From IMG/VR virus record IMGVR_UViG_3300021399_000010, positions 15,215 through 79,214 of that record: DNA of 64,000 nucleotides; one strand, written 5' to 3'. This DNA is from a virus (lineage: Duplodnaviria > Caudoviricetes). Both the position numbers and the translations under genes were made by a program. Positions 24,157-46,115 of this stretch are shown here, one piece after another. Under the pieces are notes generated by a model. It made no database searches. It saw only the letters and a program-made list of their open reading frames with translations, and was not told the DNA's origin. Position 1 is the stretch's first letter, and every line of letters begins with the position of its first letter.

Positions 24157-24657
24157 TCAGATAAACAGACTTATTGCGTCCACCATCCAATTCTTTCCAG
24201 CTTGCGACTCAGCAAAACTGCGCGAAGACACATACAACTCTGTCAAGTTACCTTCCCACTCGACATACTCAAAGTCGTCTGGTTTGTAGTCGTCACGTTC
24301 AAGACTCACACTCCACCCGCCGTGCCAATCGTGTATGCGGACTACTTTTGCGGTGTAGTTAACGCCAGTTTTAAGAATTCGCTCCCAATCCTCTCTATAA
24401 AGGTTGCCGTACTGATTAGTCGCCGAATAATACAGCGACAAGCAGTCGCCGCAATTCATCTCAACTGCCGCTGCGGTGAGGAACACCCTCACACGCCCCC
24501 ATAGTTCGGACTCGTCCTTGGCGGACTTCATCTCGTCCTGCCTGTAGCGCAGGACATCGAGTGCGAGGTCGTCGTAGCCGTCTGTGAAGACGTTGCTATT
24601 GTCTGCCAACTCAGTTTCCAACTCTCTCACAATCTGTGAATACTTTTTTGTTGTCAT
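24157..24657 (-). CDS. Acidic hypothetical protein
   Basis: 166-aa ORF. Confidence 0.8.
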   Translation of the reverse strand: MTTKKYSQIVRELETELADNSNVFTDGYDDLALDVLRYRQDEMKSAKDESELWGRVRVFLTAAAVEMNCGDCLSLYYSATNQYGNLYREDWERILKTGVNYTAKVVRIHDWHGGWSVSLERDDYKPDDFEYVEWEGNLTELYVSSRSFAESQAGKNWMVDAISLFI

Positions 24658-24686
24658 TGTCGTATATTTTATTGGTTAAACGTATT

Positions 24687-24751
24687 GAGCCTGCTATCGG
24701 AGTCGAACCGACACACCTTTTCACAAAGGCGACCGTGCCTGTCCGCAGACT
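24687..24751 (-). tRNA. tRNA-like element with a GUGA tetraloop in place of the anticodon loop
   Basis: Acceptor AGTCTGC/GCAGGCT, D-arm GAC-AGGCACG-GTC, CCTTT-GTGA-AAAGG, T-arm GTCGG-TTCGACT-CCGAT; 65 nt, no CCA. Confidence 0.65.
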
Positions 24752-24869
24752 TGATATGTGCGCTTTGACTTTATCGCTAAAGCAGCAACGCACGAAACGA
24801 AAAGCGGTGTCGCTACACCTTGATGAAACGACACCAACGCAGCCGCCCCGTGTTGAGAGTGAACACGGC

Positions 24870-25166
24870 CTATCTTGTCTCGTATACAAATATCCCTGTC
24901 TCCATGTCCTTCACTTCAGTCGGCAGGCCGAACTCTGTCCTCATTTTATGAGCATAAAGCTTCGCCATCCTCAGCGTACCGAAGAAGTTAAATGTTGCAC
25001 CTATTTCGTTGGATATATTCCATTTGCTCCACGAGGAAGGCCAACCTTCCTCAATGTTTTTCCGCCTCATGGCACGTATGTACATATCACGTCTCTCTCT
25101 GGCAGTCCTGCCACGTCCATTGCGCCACACCTTCTTGGCGCACATCATTTCTTCACACTTTGTCAT
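24870..25166 (-). CDS. Basic hypothetical protein
   Basis: 98-aa ORF. Confidence 0.65.
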   Translation of the reverse strand: MTKCEEMMCAKKVWRNGRGRTARERRDMYIRAMRRKNIEEGWPSSWSKWNISNEIGATFNFFGTLRMAKLYAHKMRTEFGLPTEVKDMETGIFVYETR

Positions 25167-25169
25167 AAT

Positions 25170-26028
25170 CTTTTCTATTTAATTTTTTTGTTGTGCTCAT
25201 GCTTTATCCCGACTTGCACTACGGACTACATATGTGCAAAAATTACACATGGTAGGTGCATTTACAACACGGGCACACGCAACACGTACGTATGCCCCTG
25301 CTGATATTCTGTATGTGAAGCAAGTGCTGGACGCCGCCCCAGCATAAACCACTACGCCGCGTATTTTGGCTTGCTACTATCCTTCCATTTGGGCTACGGC
25401 ACGCCACCGCCGCTTTCCGCCATCCGCGCATTTTGCACCCACATTTGCATGCTCAAAAGCATCGACAGCAAGCAGGTACTATTATTCGCTGCTTTGTTCA
25501 CGTCTGCTGTCATACGGCCGCTTGCATAAAATAAACGGCAAAGTGGCATTTTAACTGCAAATGCCAAACGCCTGCTATATCTTTCACAGGTTGTTCGCAG
25601 CCAGTCGCTAACAAAATGTCACCACACAAAATTACTTTATTGTGCCACACGGCGCCACCTGCTAACTAAAGCGTCCCTAAACTATCCGCTATCCTGCCGC
25701 CATACAAAAGCGGTTAATTCAATTGGAATAACTGCCCACACCAACAAATCGGTGCTACGGGCAGGCTATAGGGCACGCCTGTGCCTCTGCCTTTTCTTCT
25801 TTTATGGAATAATGCCAAATATCGCTTTACGCCTTGCTGCTTACTCGCTATCTGTGCCTCTGCTTAAGCGATAACACACGCTTACGCTGGCGGTGCTGAT
25901 AAAAACACAACACGCAAACGGATAGTTTTTGGCAGGTTGGCGCCCACCTGGCATAGCAGGTAGGTTTTTGTTGTGGGGCGGTAGCAATCAAATGCTTACG
26001 CTCAAGGCGCCGCCCCCAGCCCCCGCTG
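25170..26028 (-). ncRNA. Candidate large structured non-coding RNA or DNA signal
   Basis: About 860 nt with no convincing ORF, GC-richer than its flanks, several hairpins and GC-GTAA-GC loops. Confidence 0.4.
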
Positions 26029-26538
26029 TTAGATTACATTGGCCACACGCTCTACGAATGTTTCAGTATCGATGGCACCAACCTTTAGCGCTAATATCAG
26101 CGCCTGCTTGTGGTAGCAGGTAGGGCGCGAAATATCTGCCATATCCTTCTCGACTGCTGCCCTATATGCCAGATATGATGCTATTGCGTCCAGCGTAGGC
26201 GCAGCGGTAGCACTGCCAGATATAGGCCGATATTCATACACGCCGCCGTATAGCGTTATCAGCTCGCCGCCTTTATATGATTTGGCACGGGCGGGCACTA
26301 TCTTGCAGAAGCGGCCGGCACTATCCTTTGGCAGGAGCGACAAATCGAAGCCCCGTCCGGTTATCTTATTAGCCACCTGCCAGAGGCGTTTTACATTCTC
26401 GAGCACTACGCCGTCTAATGCCGTATTTTTCTTCGCCTGCTTATTTAAGGCATGTAGCCAGAAAAGATTGCTCTTTGTCACTTCTTTCATTTCTCGCTTG
26501 GCAGCGGTAGCAACCGCCGTAAATTCATTCTTTGCCAT
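26029..26538 (-). CDS. Hypothetical protein, first gene of the leftward unit
   Basis: Probable start MAKNEF at 26538, downstream of a promoter box. Confidence 0.7.
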   Translation of the reverse strand: MAKNEFTAVATAAKREMKEVTKSNLFWLHALNKQAKKNTALDGVVLENVKRLWQVANKITGRGFDLSLLPKDSAGRFCKIVPARAKSYKGGELITLYGGVYEYRPISGSATAAPTLDAIASYLAYRAAVEKDMADISRPTCYHKQALILALKVGAIDTETFVERVANVI

Positions 26539-26606
26539 AATTGTAAACGTTTTAGTTAATGATATTTTGTTGTTTTGTTGCATCGATTACGTTTTGTAAT
26601 CTGCTG

Positions 26607-26614
26607 CAAAGGTA
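26607..26614 (-). promoter_or_regulatory. Bacteroidota -7 box (TACCTTTG) for leftward genes
   Basis: Exact TAnnTTTG about 70 nt upstream of the first leftward ORF. Confidence 0.65.
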
Positions 26615-26630
26615 GGGACAATAAACAAAA

Positions 26631-26669
26631 CAAAACTTTAATTTTTGATATCAAAACTTTAATTTTTGA
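26631..26669. repeat. 18-bp direct repeat CAAAACTTTAATTTTTGA x2, period 21 bp
   Basis: Exact copies at 26631-26648 and 26652-26669. Confidence 0.85.
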
Positions 26670-26774
26670 CTTAACAAATGTTAAAGTCTGTAAGCGGCTG
26701 ATTTTCAGTGATTTAGCATCAAAATATTTTTTCAACAAAAATTAGAGCGTTGACTATCTGGAATTTTTGCACAA

Positions 26775-26831
26775 ATATTGATATATTGATATATTGATAT
26801 AGGAATATAGTCATATAGTTAGTTAGTTAGT
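26775..26831. repeat. Short tandem repeats (ATATTGAT)x3 and (TAGT)x4
   Basis: Read at 26775-26798 and 26816-26831. Confidence 0.8.
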
Positions 26832-27591
26832 TTAGCTGTTAGTATATTGTGACTATCTTACATAATATAAACGTATCATATAGTGTAATAAATACACTTA
26901 ATATATTGTTTATGATATGTTATACCTATTTAATAATAGAGTAAAATATTTTGACAAATAATAAGTGTAAAAAGTACACTATTTGCAGATATTTATCTGC
27001 ATTGTTCGTTTGGGAGAAATACAAAATGCTGTTTCGTTACTTTTGCGCGCGCCGCATCAAAAAATAGGGACGGGGTGGGGGTATCGCAGGAGCGGAGTAG
27101 GTTGGTGCATACGTTCCCATTTTCTTTTTTTTATTTTTTTTCTTTTTTCCTTCTAATCTTTTTTTATTTTTTGGTTTTTTTATTTTTTCTTTTGTTTACT
27201 GTGTGTTGATATTGTCTGTTGCAGTTGTTTTTTGTTATTTCTTTGTCCTTGCAATCGTTGTCCAGTCGTGTAGAATTCGTTTTAAGCGCATTTATTTGCG
27301 TTCTGTCGCGTTCAAATTGTTTTTGGGTGTAGTTGGTAGTCTTATGTGCTTTTATGCGCTTAGAAGCGAAATAAACGAGTTTTGTTTGTTTTTGTGTGTT
27401 TTTCTCTCCAGATGTTTTTTATGATTTTGTTTTTTTCTTATATAGTAATACTATAATTAATTATGATGGACTCTTGGTTATGATGTAAACGTAAAATATT
27501 TTAAGTCACAATATACAATCGATATAATATATATAATTTACATAAAAACAAAAAAACGTTAATATATGATTGAGATTAATGATAAAATATA

Positions 27592-27599
27592 TATCTTTG
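27592..27599 (+). promoter_or_regulatory. Bacteroidota -7 box (TATCTTTG) for the rightward operon
   Basis: Exact TAnnTTTG about 60 nt upstream of ATG 27661. Confidence 0.7.
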
Positions 27600-27660
27600 C
27601 AAACTGTAATAAGATATTTACGAAAACATAGTGAGTCAATAAATCAATTAATAATTTATT

Positions 27661-28047
27661 ATGGAAGTCAATGGTAGAGTTATTGCGGTGTTGGAGCCGC
27701 AGACGTTCAAGGGGCGCAACGGTTCTGATTTCACGAAGAACGGATTTGTGATAGAGACCTCTGGTCAGTTTTCCAAGCGTTTGAAGTTTGACGTTTTGAA
27801 CACAGAGATGTGGAACAAGATACTTGTTCGTGAGGGTGCTGATGTCTCTGTGAGTTTTGATGCGGAGAGTCGTGAGTGGAATGGTCGCTGGTACACGACA
27901 TTGATGTGCTGGAGGTGTGTTGTTGTCAACGGTGCGACACCGATTCCCATCGGAGGTTCTATTGCAGACGGAAATGTCGGTGGTCAGAGTGTGTCCCAGC
28001 CGCAGAGTGTGAGCAACAATAGTAGCAACGACGAGATACCGTTTTAG
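27661..28047 (+). CDS. DUF3127-like OB-fold protein with SSB-type acidic tail
   Basis: MEVNGRVIAV...VSVSFDAESREWNGRWYT..CWR; ends NDEIPF. Confidence 0.8.
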   Translation: MEVNGRVIAVLEPQTFKGRNGSDFTKNGFVIETSGQFSKRLKFDVLNTEMWNKILVREGADVSVSFDAESREWNGRWYTTLMCWRCVVVNGATPIPIGGSIADGNVGGQSVSQPQSVSNNSSNDEIPF

Positions 28048-44327: not shown

Positions 44328-46115
44328 ATGTCAAGCAGAAACAAAGACAAGGTTTTATCTCCACTTGCGGATGGAAATCAGAAGTATGCAATACGTTCAA
44401 ATGCTGATATTGTATGCTTTACTGGCAACACAGGAGGAGGAAAGTCATACGCATTGTATTATGCGCCAATGGAGTACCTTGCAATGAATGACAATGCGAA
44501 GATTGTTTGCTTTATGCGAAACATCTCCGACTTCTGGGGTGCAGGAAAAGTCAACGACACGTTGAAGAAAATGTACCCACTTATCGACCGCTCGGTGAAG
44601 AAACAACCCAGAGACCCAATCGGTGAGATTATCAGAACCCCCACCGACATGGGTATGAAACTACATAATGGAAGTGAAATAAAATTCCAACAGCTTGACA
44701 ACGAGAGTCCCATTGTTATTGAGAAGATTGCCAAGGGTCTGCAAGCGAAGAAACTTATTTTCGATGAATGCAACAAATTTAACTGGAGGACGATTACCGC
44801 TTTTATGCCTCGTCTTCGCAGCGACTCAAGTGGCAAGGCTCAGATATTTCTCGCACAGAACCCAGAGCGTGAGTGTTTCTTGCGCAAACTGTGTGGGAAA
44901 GGGGAACATGGAGGTGGGTGGATTAATGATGACGGCTCTGTTGACAAGTCTATGGATGGGGTTGTGATGTACTTCAACATGGAGGAGGGTGACTTGGAAA
45001 AGACCTACTTCGGGAGAACCAAAAAGGAGGTTTACGAAAAGTGCAAAGACCACATCGACTCTCTTCTTGCGGTAGACCCAGATATGTCATACGAGGACTT
45101 TATCTTGTCTATGGTGTTCTACACATTCGATGTGAGAGACAACAAGAAGATGTTGTCCAAAAACAAATCCTATCGTGGTCTTGCCGCAAACTCTTCCACT
45201 GCACTCTCTTCCTACAATGCAAACTGGAACTACTCTATTACTGATGATGAGGATGACTCTATTGAGGACTTGTCAAAAGTTCAAGTTTCGCAGATGGACA
45301 TAGAGAGGATGTTCCGTCCTGCCGAGATTCCACACGACAGTGTTTGCGAGAAACGTTTTATGACGATGGATATGGCAACCACTGGTTTCGACAACCTCAT
45401 CTTCATGTATTGGGAGAAATGGTCTAAGTTTGGATTCCTTTGCAGAGACATCAAGTATAGCATGCAGAACACAAACCGAGAGGCGGTAATGATGGCAATC
45501 AAATTCCGTGAGACCCACAACTTGCTTGAGAAAGACATGATACTTGATGTGCAAGGATTCGGATTCCTCAAGGACTGCTTTCCAAGGTCGATTACTTTCT
45601 CTGGCGCAGGTACTGCATCCAATCGTGGAAAAGCACAATTCAAGACCATGAAGGACGAGGCTGGACATATTGCTCTTGAGATGATTAAGAGCGGCCTTGT
45701 ACACTTTGACCCACAACTTGCAAATATGCACTACAATCACAAACACATGAGAAGAGAGGGCGGTACTACAATTCTCCGTCACATGTTGTTTGAGAGTAGG
45801 ATATTCCAGTTCAATAGGACTCCAAATGGCAGGATAGCGATGTTGGGAAAGGAGCAGATGAAGCCGATGTTGAAAGGCATGTCTCCAGACTTGACAGACA
45901 ATATAATCCTTGCTTGTGGTGGTATGGTCTACGATTGTTACCGAATGTTGCGAGATGATTCTGGCATGATGCGCAAACGTGCGAATGCAGAAGACATGCT
46001 CGCTCTTCTCAACGTGAATGCAGATGTCGATGGAAATGACCCCATGAGTTTTGCGAGACCAAAGAAGAAAATAAGAAATGCGAGTGAAATACTAAAAGTT
46101 TTAAGTTCAATATGA
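44328..46115 (+). CDS. terL: Terminase large subunit
   Basis: Walker A FTGNTGGGKS, Walker B LIFDEC, AQNP coupling motif, nuclease strand MTMDMATTGFD. Confidence 0.9.
   Translation: MSSRNKDKVLSPLADGNQKYAIRSNADIVCFTGNTGGGKSYALYYAPMEYLAMNDNAKIVCFMRNISDFWGAGKVNDTLKKMYPLIDRSVKKQPRDPIGEIIRTPTDMGMKLHNGSEIKFQQLDNESPIVIEKIAKGLQAKKLIFDECNKFNWRTITAFMPRLRSDSSGKAQIFLAQNPERECFLRKLCGKGEHGGGWINDDGSVDKSMDGVVMYFNMEEGDLEKTYFGRTKKEVYEKCKDHIDSLLAVDPDMSYEDFILSMVFYTFDVRDNKKMLSKNKSYRGLAANSSTALSSYNANWNYSITDDEDDSIEDLSKVQVSQMDIERMFRPAEIPHDSVCEKRFMTMDMATTGFDNLIFMYWEKWSKFGFLCRDIKYSMQNTNREAVMMAIKFRETHNLLEKDMILDVQGFGFLKDCFPRSITFSGAGTASNRGKAQFKTMKDEAGHIALEMIKSGLVHFDPQLANMHYNHKHMRREGGTTILRHMLFESRIFQFNRTPNGRIAMLGKEQMKPMLKGMSPDLTDNIILACGGMVYDCYRMLRDDSGMMRKRANAEDMLALLNVNADVDGNDPMSFARPKKKIRNASEILKVLSSI

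What the first reader, a model, noticed from the sequence alone, without database searches (positions are those of the whole stretch)
25170..26028. About 860 nt of gene-free, hairpin-dense sequence: large ncRNA or DNA-entry signal
Seen: the genome is otherwise tightly packed, but this stretch has only short, unconvincing ORFs and is GC-richer than its flanks. It holds GGGGCGG/CCGCCCC (25975-25981/26010-26016) enclosing GC-GTAA-GC, a second GC-GTAA-GC (25880-25887), GGCATTT/AAATGCC (25545-25565), GGGCA/TGCCC (25271-25297), a 12-bp direct repeat CTGTGCCTCTGC (25779, 25852) and several GCAGGT/ACCTGC words. The GNRA loops read on the minus (transcribed) strand. Established: large structured RNAs such as GOLLD and ROOL occur in phages, often near tRNAs, and T5 has a repeat- and palindrome-rich injection-stop signal near its end. 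Inference: one of these, or a new class.
Basis: partly seen in the sequence, partly recalled or inferred. Interest (0 to 1): 0.7.

Follow-up and report, generated by a model that had tools for sequence, protein, structure and literature searches.

The report
New large early phage RNA
The gene-free stretch is a strongly conserved, roughly 840-base structured non-coding element, most likely an RNA made early in infection by a rumen/gut phage of Bacteroidota; its core is two hairpins that show the same 8-base loop, it matches no described RNA family, and its job is unknown.

Summary
The gap is real. No frame is open under any genetic code, and no small ORF longer than 27 aa on the transcribed strand survives in the three full-length variants. 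Substitutions show no codon periodicity.

The stretch 25189-26028 is far better conserved than the gene beside it. About 9% of its sites vary, against 40% of that gene's third codon positions.

The same element sits next to one early-gene family in five phage clades. It lies downstream of the gene in four clades and in the 5' leader in one, always on the sense strand.

The shared core is two tandem hairpins (25893-25913 and 25865-25884). Their loops are UGUGUUAU-like, and a conserved box GCGNAAAGCGAUAUUUGRCA follows them.
- A covariance model built without the window's clade finds the window at E about 3e-4.
- All 9 stem pairs show compensatory changes, and every cell forms a standard pair.
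- The G·U pairs fit only the gene-sense strand.

Rfam gives no match, so it is not GOLLD or ROOL. Nothing supports a T5-like DNA-entry signal.

Function is inferred only. My best guess is a promoter-proximal RNA platform on which two copies of one factor bind the twin loops. Evidence of expression is weak: only RNA-library contigs.

The parts
25189..26028 (-). Whole conserved non-coding element (about 840 nt), read 5'->3' from 26028 down to 25189
   Evidence: Compared with L010, L012 and L013, the element differs by 1.1%, 5.9% and 4.6%, against 5.6%, 11.8% and 11.8% for the adjacent CDS. There is no codon periodicity: 29/25/20 variable sites by phase, against 12/8/67 in the gene. Contigs in runs X3 and X4 keep this block at about 96% identity while they lack flanking genes.
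25975..26016 (-). 5' hairpin P1 (GGGGCGG...CCGCCCC)
   Evidence: RNAalifold pairs columns 32-38 with 67-73. Pair 35/70 changes from G-C to A-U in L013.
25943..25964 (-). Second 5' hairpin (CCUACCUG...CAGGUGGG)
   Evidence: Pair 88/101 changes from C-G to U-A in L012, and pair 86/103 from U-G to U-A.
25893..25913 (-). Core hairpin Ha: GUGUUG [UGUUUUUAU] CAGCAC
   Evidence: It aligns to hairpin 1 of model R1, which was built without this clade. All 6 pairs covary across clades.
25865..25884 (-). Core hairpin Hb: UAAGCG [UGUGUUAU] CGCUUA
   Evidence: The loop is identical in clade 2, L019 and L020, and reads UGAGUUAU in L017. The three inner pairs all covary.
25813..25832 (-). Conserved single-stranded box GCGUAAAGCGAUAUUUGGCA
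   Evidence: Conserved between the window clade, clade 2 and L017, and more loosely in L019.
25545..25565 (-). Hairpin GGCAUUU [GCAGUUA] AAAUGCC
   Evidence: RNAalifold pairs columns 485-491 with 499-505. A C-to-U change in L013 gives a G-U pair.
25434..25449 (-). Hairpin UGCA [AAUGUGGG] UGCA, probably the counterpart of 'island 2' in relatives
   Evidence: Clade 2 has UGCAA[AAAUGUGGGUA]UUGCA at the collinear place. This was seen by eye and is not statistically tested.
25271..25297 (-). Long 3' hairpin (GGGCAUACGUA...UGCGUGUGCCC)
   Evidence: RNAalifold pairs columns 756-766 with 772-782. A change in L013 gives a G-U pair.
25325..25808 (.). Part covered by contigs of RNA libraries
   Evidence: X11 has a 484-nt contig at 25325-25808 with 4 differences. 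X18, from another study, has a 179-nt contig at 25381-25559 with 0 differences. Neither has a contig on the two flanking genes. This is weak evidence: the runs were picked with words from 25000-26600.
26607..26614 (-). Bacteroidota-type -7 box TACCTTTG, the likely early leftward promoter that drives gene 1 and the element
   Evidence: Pattern scan. The same kind of box (TAnnTTTG) stands just upstream of the element in clade 2.
26029..26583 (-). First early gene (169-184 aa), always next to the element
   Evidence: The family has 92 cluster representatives. It has no Pfam or PHROG family. The AF2 model has pLDDT 86 and finds no PDB fold match.
24870..25188 (-). 98-aa gene cassette inserted at the 3' edge of the element
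   Evidence: L010, L012, X3 and X4 carry 11 nt here instead.
24690..24751 (-). tRNA-like element (acceptor-like stem, T-loop UUCGACU, GUGA cap) downstream of the element
Evidence: Read directly from the sequence. L020 has a T-loop minihelix at the 3' end of its own gap.

Best explanation
Window 25189-26028 (minus strand) is a structured non-coding RNA of about 0.84 kb.

Where it is made (inferred from promoter boxes): it is transcribed as part of the leftward early transcript of a siphophage of Bacteroidota. The promoter carries the -7 box TACCTTTG at 26614. The element comes directly after the first early gene.

Family (shown): it belongs to a family of 0.55-0.84-kb elements found in at least five related phage clades. 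The element always adjoins that gene family and is always on its sense strand.

Core (shown): two tandem hairpins each display a UGUGUUAU-type loop on a freely varying stem. A conserved single-stranded box follows them.

Mechanism (inferred): the twin loops are a docking platform for two copies of one factor. This could be the neighbouring early protein or a host RNA-binding protein. The complex would then act on the nascent early transcript or its polymerase, by nut/put-like read-through, processing or stabilisation. The rest of the RNA would fold into a stable body. That body may be released from the operon transcript with the help of the tRNA-like element downstream.
For: Not coding:
- All six frames carry stops of all three kinds.
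- Seven of the eight small ORFs on the transcribed strand, all those longer than 27 aa, are broken in at least one of three variants, and substitutions show no codon periodicity.

Constrained:
- 74 of 840 sites vary, against 67 of 169 third codon positions in the adjacent gene.
- Runs X3 and X4 keep the block at about 96% identity while they lack the 98-aa gene. X3 also lacks the 166-aa gene.

Homologous elements in other clades:
- nhmmer matches the clade-2 upstream region to the L017 downstream gap at E 2.5e-9, with a second collinear piece at 2.6e-3. It matches the window clade at E about 0.01, and the reverse search gives 0.006.
- Covariance model R1 was built from clade 2 and L017 only. 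It finds window 25782-25919(-) at E 2.8e-4, L013 at 9.5e-6, and a new clade, L019, at 1.5e-4. L020 has both hairpins.

Structure:
- All 9 pairs of the two hairpins have double changes, and 100% of 78 cells pair. None of 500 shuffles reaches this, and slid controls give 28-55% paired.
- Within the window clade, 23 variable pairs are kept and 7 broken on the minus strand. On the plus strand 9 are kept and 18 broken. The null kept fraction is 0.61.

RNA, sense strand:
- Five G-U cells in the core stems would be A-C mismatches on the other strand.
- The element keeps its sense orientation when it swaps sides of the gene. In clade 2 it starts just after a TAnnTTTG promoter box.
- RNA-library contigs from two studies lie inside the gap.

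One partner for both loops: L017 changed both loops to UGAGUUAU, and L012 has UGUUUUUAU in both.
Against: - There is no direct evidence of a discrete transcript or of its ends. The RNA-library contigs are shallow (depth 3-4), could be carried-over DNA, and come from runs chosen with words of this same stretch.
- The single-sequence folding z-scores are modest and similar on both strands.
- Outside the 140-nt core, cross-clade structure has not been tested. Within-clade variation is too low to prove the other helices.
- The proposed partner is a guess. The neighbouring protein has no known RNA-binding fold or family.
- The simple scan found no terminator-like sites on the sense strand near the element in L017 or L015, so the read-through idea lacks its expected target there.
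- An 840-nt body is far larger than any known nut or put site.
Confidence: 0.75

Rival explanations
1. It is a free-standing, trans-acting stable RNA. It could be a self-assembling 'ornate' RNA in the manner of ROOL/GOLLD. It could also be a sponge or decoy whose twin loops titrate a host RNA-binding or defence protein. In this reading it is cut out of the early transcript and does not act in cis.
For: - It is large (0.55-0.84 kb) and constrained along its whole length.
- RNA-library contigs lie on the element but not on the flanking genes.
- tRNA-like elements lie 3' of it in the window clade and in L020. Known large phage RNAs are often found near tRNAs.
- Four of five clades keep the identical loop UGUGUUAU although their neighbour proteins are only 35-50% identical. 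That fits a conserved host target.
Against: - It has no similarity to any Rfam family.
- Its strict promoter-proximal place and its adjacency to one gene family fit a cis or partnered role as well.
- Processing has not been shown.
- Both loops changed together in L017, which suggests a lineage-specific partner.
Confidence: 0.3
2. It is a DNA-level element that works as single-stranded hairpins. Examples would be an origin or priming site, a hairpin promoter, or an entry or packaging signal beside the AT-rich replication-origin-like region.
For: - Variable stems with fixed loops are also the signature of ssDNA hairpin sites, such as the nick sites of rolling-circle replicons and the hairpin promoters of phage N4 (my own knowledge).
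- It lies 0.6 kb from a 1.1-kb AT-rich region with a GC-skew switch and short direct repeats.
- G-T mismatches are tolerated in DNA hairpins.
Against: - The element keeps the sense orientation and a place inside the early transcript in all five clades, even where it has moved to the other side of the gene.
- All 840 nt are constrained, not just a site.
- RNA-library contigs cover it.
- No replication or nicking gene is linked to it.
- It is about 18 kb from the terminase genes.
Confidence: 0.1
3. It has no function of its own. It would be decayed genes, a spacer kept similar by recent recombination, or a set of tiny ORFs.
For: - The early regions of these phages are mosaic. The 98-aa and 166-aa genes come and go.
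- On the opposite strand, two overlapping ORFs in different frames (62 and 52 aa, both with TTG starts) stay open in the three variants.
Against: - Its sites vary about 4.5 times less often than the neighbour gene's third codon positions, and this holds in three variants plus X3 and X4.
- Covarying hairpins are shared with clades whose neighbour protein is only 37-49% identical.
- In the antisense 62-aa ORF, the L012 indels are a 1-nt and a 2-nt insertion about 56 nt apart. They would scramble about 18 codons.
Confidence: 0.04

Closest known systems
Lambda nut sites (boxA + boxB) and HK022 put RNAs
   Same: - These are promoter-proximal RNA elements in phage early transcripts.
- They are hairpins whose loops are read while the stems vary, with a conserved linear box beside them. 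put has two tandem hairpins.
- Lambda has both layouts seen here: nutL lies upstream of the first gene N, and nutR lies downstream of the first gene cro.
All of this is from my own knowledge.
   Different: - nut and put are 50-70 nt, while this element is 550-840 nt and constrained throughout.
- There is no sequence likeness.
- The neighbouring protein is a folded 170-210-aa protein, not an arginine-rich N-like peptide.
- No read-through has been shown, and the simple scan found no sense-strand terminator-like sites in two relatives.
ROOL and GOLLD (large ornate RNAs, often in prophages and rumen or lake metagenomes; Rfam; bioRxiv 10.1101/2024.12.08.627333)
   Same: - Size class, and phage and rumen origin.
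- No coding capacity and many hairpins.
- tRNA-like elements nearby.
   Different: - No covariance-model match even at E<=10 in the window or E<=0.1 in the relatives.
- Here the element is part of an early operon next to one gene family. Its hallmark is a twin hairpin with a UGUGUUAU loop.
Candidate structured RNAs from large screens of viral contigs (PMC10690425) and human microbiomes (PMC8040213)
   Same: Comparative-genomics candidates from phage intergenic regions, including cis elements next to particular genes.
   Different: Those motifs average 67 nt.
T5 injection-stop signal
   Different: - The transcript-like orientation is conserved.
- Stems covary under fixed loops.
- It is not adjacent to packaging genes.
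- The phage is unrelated to T5: its closest cultured relative is Bacteroides phage C3_41T2LP, with 54% terminase identity.

Membership tests
GOLLD (Rfam) | Match to the family covariance model at or near its gathering score | tested here: not met
   cmscan of the whole window at gathering thresholds, and of 24800-27800 at E<=10, gave no GOLLD hit. Nor did the homologous elements of nine relatives' loci at E<=0.1.
ROOL (Rfam) | Match to the family covariance model | tested here: not met
   The same searches gave no hit.
Group I / group II introns, OLE, HEARO, raiA and other large RNAs in Rfam 15 | Match to any of the family covariance models | tested here: not met
   The only hits at E<=10 in 24800-27800 are three chance-level matches outside the element: RAGATH-28, mir-399 and TMV_UPD-PK3.
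Lambda-type nut / HK022-type put antitermination RNA | Promoter-proximal position in the early transcript | tested here: met
   A TAnnTTTG box stands at 26614, upstream of gene 1 plus the element. In clade 2 the element starts just after such a box.
Lambda-type nut / HK022-type put antitermination RNA | Hairpin(s) with conserved loop and variable stem, plus a conserved linear box | tested here: met
   Twin hairpins with all 9 pairs covarying and fixed loops, followed by a conserved 20-nt box.
Lambda-type nut / HK022-type put antitermination RNA | Promotes read-through of downstream terminators | not testable with these tools
   A terminator-like hairpin with a U-tract lies downstream in the window at 24819-24806(-). 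The simple scan found no sense-strand terminator-like sites in L017 or L015. A reporter assay is needed.
T5-like injection-stop / DNA-entry signal | Located near the first-injected genome end and acts as DNA | tested here: inconclusive
   The element lies at 40.4-41.2 kb of a 79.2-kb record, but the record's start may be arbitrary. The conserved transcript-like orientation argues against a DNA signal.
Type III toxin-antitoxin RNA (ToxI-like) | Tandem array of near-identical short repeats next to an endoribonuclease toxin | tested here: not met
   There is no tandem array. In the fold searches of the neighbour protein no PDB chain reached Foldseek E<=0.1 or VIA Z>=3.

The most novel reading that the evidence does not exclude
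This is a previously undescribed class of large phage RNA. It would be an early-made 0.55-0.84-kb RNA whose twin UGUGUUAU hairpins recruit two copies of a dedicated early phage protein of a new fold. It would be released by tRNA-like processing signals. It would be either a new transcription-control ribonucleoprotein of Bacteroidota phages or a new self-standing ornate RNA.
Probability: 0.35. Interest if true: 0.8.

Novelty: new variant of a known kind. Interest (0 to 1): 0.66.

Why it matters
Large structured RNAs are rare, and each new class has opened new biochemistry. This one is tied to the first minutes of infection in phages of Bacteroidota, the dominant gut and rumen bacteria. Early gene control in those phages is essentially unknown.

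The element gives a compact, testable handle: two identical loops on covarying stems, a conserved box, and a candidate partner gene that always sits beside it.

If it turns out to be a read-through or processing device, it would be the first nut/put-like system outside the lambdoid phages of proteobacteria. If it is a free RNA, it adds a family to the small set of ornate phage RNAs.

Tried and rejected
- **Alternative genetic codes.** Stops of all three kinds occur in all frames.
- **BLAST of the stretch against 50,697 phage records.** No match.
- **Relatives by protein patterns.** The two flanking proteins as single queries, and the three-sequence alignment A1, found nothing new in IMG/VR contigs. 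Alignment A2 found nothing in JGI metagenome contigs. The 56-sequence alignment was too diverse to search with.
- **Exact 20- and 21-mers of the element.** No hit in IMG/VR or JGI metagenome contigs.
- **Twin-loop DNA pattern.**
  - The 11 IMG/VR hits were chance matches.
  - None of the 38 hits in GTDB genomes scored with model R1 (E<=0.1) at the matched place. The four Prevotella/Bacteroidales hits that I read are one protein-coding stretch, not an RNA.
  - So no host or prophage copy was found.
- **L006, L007, L008** (629-aa protein 69-76% identical). Their early regions are not alignable to the window. L006 has a 555-nt gap after its gene-1 homologue but without the UGUGUUAU loops, so homology is undecided.
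- **Bacteroides phage C3_41T2LP** (first 50 kb read). No R1 match.
- **Function of the neighbour protein.** No Pfam or PHROG family. Foldseek E>0.1 and VIA Z<3.
- **Complex prediction**, to test a homodimer of that protein.
- **Terminator scans near the element in L017 and L015.** No terminator-like sites on the sense strand.
- **RNA-library cover.** The parts of the stretch without RNA contigs say nothing.
- **Literature search for the loop word.** Only microRNA noise.
- **Supplement of PMC10690425.** Not held, so overlap with its candidates is unknown.

Full report
**Setting.** The window is bases 15215-79214 of a 79,214-bp viral record with direct terminal repeats. The gene content is that of a siphophage. 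It has a large terminase (44328-46115), whose closest cultured match at 54% identity is Bacteroides phage C3_41T2LP, and a 2,421-aa protein that I take to be the tape measure by its position and by comparison with C3_41T2LP. Promoter boxes of the Bacteroidota type (TAnnTTTG) face outward from a 1.1-kb AT-rich region at 26600-27650, where the GC skew changes sign. One box at 26614(-) precedes the first gene of a long leftward block (26583 down to about 589). The finding lies immediately after that first gene.

**The observation.**
- 25167-26028 has no credible gene. All six frames carry TAA, TAG and TGA stops.
- A public gene caller left the same 880-nt gap in a genome whose 2.7 kb around the gap is 100% identical.
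- The named inverted repeats and the 12-nt direct repeat exist.
- The region is not GC-richer than the gene on its right.
- Single-sequence folding beats shuffles only mildly, and on both strands: z = -1.85 and -2.27.
- Rfam gives nothing at gathering thresholds or at E<=10.

**Close variants.** The cluster of the neighbouring protein led to four contigs that carry the stretch: L010, L011 (partial), L012 and L013. Two metagenome runs hold further variants. Three things follow.
- *Boundary.* The 98-aa gene at 24870-25166, with its leader up to 25188, is a cassette. L010, L012, X3 and X4 have 11 nt in its place, so the conserved unit is 25189-26028.
- *Constraint.* This unit differs by 1.1%, 5.9% and 4.6% from the three full variants, against 5.6%, 11.8% and 11.8% for the adjacent gene. 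In the gene, 67 of 87 variable sites are third codon positions (40% of them). In the gap, 74 of 840 sites vary and are spread 29/25/20 over the three phases. The stretch therefore changes about 4.5 times more slowly than synonymous sites.
- *Small ORFs.* Of the eight ORFs of 25 aa or more on the transcribed strand, seven are broken in at least one variant. Only a 27-aa ORF in the most invariant part stays open. The antisense ORFs that stay open have TTG starts. The 62-aa one is hit in L012 by a 1-nt and a 2-nt insertion about 56 nt apart.

Coding and neutral decay are thus excluded.

**Structure within the clade.** RNAalifold on the minus-strand alignment gives 218 pairs.
- Three pairs show double changes.
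- About two dozen show one-sided changes that keep pairing.
- Three pairs are broken in one sequence each (C-U, C-A, C-U).
- In a fair comparison, with each strand folded on its own, the minus strand keeps 23 of 30 variable pairs and the plus strand 9 of 27.
- Column shuffles keep 61% on average and at most 72%, against 77% observed on the minus strand.

This is suggestive but not proof, because the sequences are only 1-6% apart.

**Distant relatives.** The neighbouring protein belongs to a family with 92 representatives at 50% clustering. I read the context of five further clades.
- *Gaps downstream of the gene.* A gene-free stretch follows the gene in L017/L018 (640 nt; protein 42% identical), L020/L021 (680 nt; 37%) and L006 (555 nt; 31%). 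L019 (47% identical) runs on gene-free for 236 nt to the contig end.
- *Clade 2.* This clade (49% identical; L002, L003, L004, L014, L015) has small genes downstream instead. It carries a conserved non-coding stretch of about 550 nt between a TAnnTTTG box and the gene's start codon.
- *Profile searches tie these together.*
  - The clade-2 leader matches the L017 downstream gap at E 2.5e-9, with a second collinear piece at E 2.6e-3.
  - The clade-2 leader matches the window clade at E 0.01-0.025, and the reverse search gives 0.006.

**The shared core.** The core is two tandem hairpins with an 8-nt loop, followed by a conserved box. The window's box reads GCGUAAAGCGAUAUUUGGCA.

| Clade | Ha | Hb |
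|---|---|---|
| Window | GUGUUG[UGUUUUUAU]CAGCAC | UAAGCG[UGUGUUAU]CGCUUA |
| L015 | CACUUA[UGUGUUAU]UAGGUG | GCCG[..]CGGC |
| L002 | CGUCUG[..]CAGACG | GCUA[..]UAGU |
| L017 | UUUCGG[UGAGUUAU]CCGGAG | UCGG[UGAGUUAU]CCGA |
| L019 | AGA[..]UCU | ACCGA[..]UCGGU |
| L020 | GGCAAUAG[..]CUAUUGCC | GUCG[..]CGAC |

[..] stands for UGUGUUAU.

**Independent test of the core.** I built covariance model R1 from clade 2 and L017 only, with just these two hairpins as structure.
- In a 200-kb search it found window 25782-25919(-) at 24.3 bits, E 2.8e-4.
- It found the other window-clade variants at E 1e-5 to 4e-3, and the new clade L019 at 1.5e-4.
- On the resulting 9-sequence alignment all 9 pairs have changes on both sides, and 78 of 78 cells are standard pairs. 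None of 500 shuffles reaches this.
- Sliding the partners by 1-3 columns drops pairing to 28-55%.
- The alignment was fitted by the model, which favours the structure. However, the fixed loops anchor it, and the seed alignment was made by MAFFT alone.

**RNA or DNA, and which strand.**
- Five cells in the core are G-U pairs, which would be A-C mismatches on the other strand.
- In all five clades the element has the orientation of the early genes and lies inside the early transcript. This holds even in clade 2, where it sits on the other side of the gene and begins just after the promoter box.
- In the four clades where the element follows the gene, the first hairpin starts 116-148 nt after the gene's stop codon.
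- Contigs from two metatranscriptome studies lie inside the gap (25325-25808 and 25381-25559) and none lies on the flanking genes. These runs were chosen with words of 25000-26600 and the depth is 3-4, so I treat this as a hint only.

Together these favour an RNA read on the minus strand. An ssDNA hairpin element remains a minority rival.

**How it may work (inferred).**
- Two identical loops on unrelated stems suggest two copies of one reader.
- The loops changed together in L017 (both UGAGUUAU) and in L012 (both UGUUUUUAU), which fits a single partner.
- The gene that always adjoins the element is the obvious candidate. Its product is a confidently modelled helix/sheet protein (pLDDT 86) with no family and no fold match, so nothing supports or excludes RNA binding.
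- The layout recalls lambda nutL and nutR and HK022 put (my own knowledge): a promoter, then the element before or after the first gene, with loop-specific hairpins and a linear box.
- The window has a terminator-like hairpin with a U-tract downstream at 24819-24806(-). The simple scan found no sense-strand terminator-like sites in L017 or L015.
- The element is ten times larger than any nut or put site, and all of it is constrained. That argues for an additional or different role, such as a stable processed RNA.
I could read its acceptor-like stem, T-loop (UUCGACU) and GUGA cap. L020 has a 9-bp T-loop minihelix at the 3' end of its own gap. Cleavage by tRNA-processing enzymes could therefore set the RNA's 3' side. 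This is untested.

**Comparison with known families.** It is not a member of GOLLD, ROOL or any other Rfam 15 family. It resembles nut/put in place and in motif logic, but not in size or sequence. Large screens of viral contigs have reported thousands of short candidate motifs averaging 67 nt (PMC10690425). I could not check overlap, because no sequences were available. Searches for more members in IMG/VR, JGI metagenomes and GTDB genomes found none. The family is so far known only from one IMG/VR record (the window), one JGI metagenome contig (L017) and Logan and ENA assemblies. By the run records most of these samples are rumen or animal gut, and one is labelled soil.

**Verdict.** This is a real, strongly constrained element that is very probably an RNA. 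It defines a new family with a well-supported twin-hairpin core. Its function and its ends are unknown.

Noticed in passing
window 24870-25188: The 98-aa gene with its leader is a cassette. L010, L012 and the contigs in runs X3 and X4 have 11 nt (GCCTACTTATG on the plus strand) in its place. It was inserted exactly at the 3' edge of the conserved element. The protein has no family match.
   Followed up: partly
window 24157-24666: The 166-aa gene is missing in the X3 contig, where 9 nt replace 508 nt. This is another movable early gene.
   Followed up: no
window 26600-27650: A 1.1-kb AT-rich (22-32% GC) gene-free region with a GC-skew sign change. It carries an exact 18-nt direct repeat (26631, 26652), an 8-nt tandem ATATTGAT repeat, T-rich runs, and outward-facing TAnnTTTG boxes at 26614(-) and 27592(+). 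It is probably the early control region and replication origin.
   Followed up: partly
window 24690-24751 (minus strand): A tRNA-like element with an acceptor-like stem (AGUCUGC/GCAGGCU), the T-loop UUCGACU, and a GUGA-capped stem where the anticodon arm would be. ARAGORN and Rfam do not call it a tRNA. It lies between the large element and the next gene.
   Followed up: partly
L020 1436-1460: A 9-bp hairpin with the T-loop-like loop UUCGAUU at the 3' end of the 680-nt gap in a distant relative. The gaps of these phages may end in tRNA-like minihelices.
   Followed up: partly
L014 1028-1102 and L002 545-619 (minus strand of the loci): Clade-2 phages carry a tRNA-shaped gene (Rfam tRNA, 50-52 bits) for which ARAGORN reports a four-base anticodon (gcga). 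It lies in the long gene-free region opposite the early operon.
   Followed up: no
L015 about 400-425 and 567-585 (also L014, L002, L003): The palindrome GUGUUUCACGUGAAACA occurs twice inside the clade-2 version of the element and is invariant in all copies.
   Followed up: no
window 25627-25634 (minus strand): A TAATTTTG box (Bacteroidota -7 type) lies inside the element, in an invariant stretch that is also predicted to be a stem. It could be an internal promoter or chance.
   Followed up: no
window 26029-26583: The first early protein belongs to a family of 92 or more clusters found only in metagenomes. It is confidently modelled (pLDDT 86: three helices, a three-stranded sheet, and three further helices, one of them long) but has no Pfam family and no PDB fold match.
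   Followed up: yes
L006 4366-4919: A more distant relative also has a 555-nt gene-free stretch after its gene-1 homologue. It is hairpin-rich (several GCAAAG-type loops) but lacks the UGUGUUAU twin hairpins. It is either a much-diverged version or a different RNA in the same slot.
   Followed up: partly
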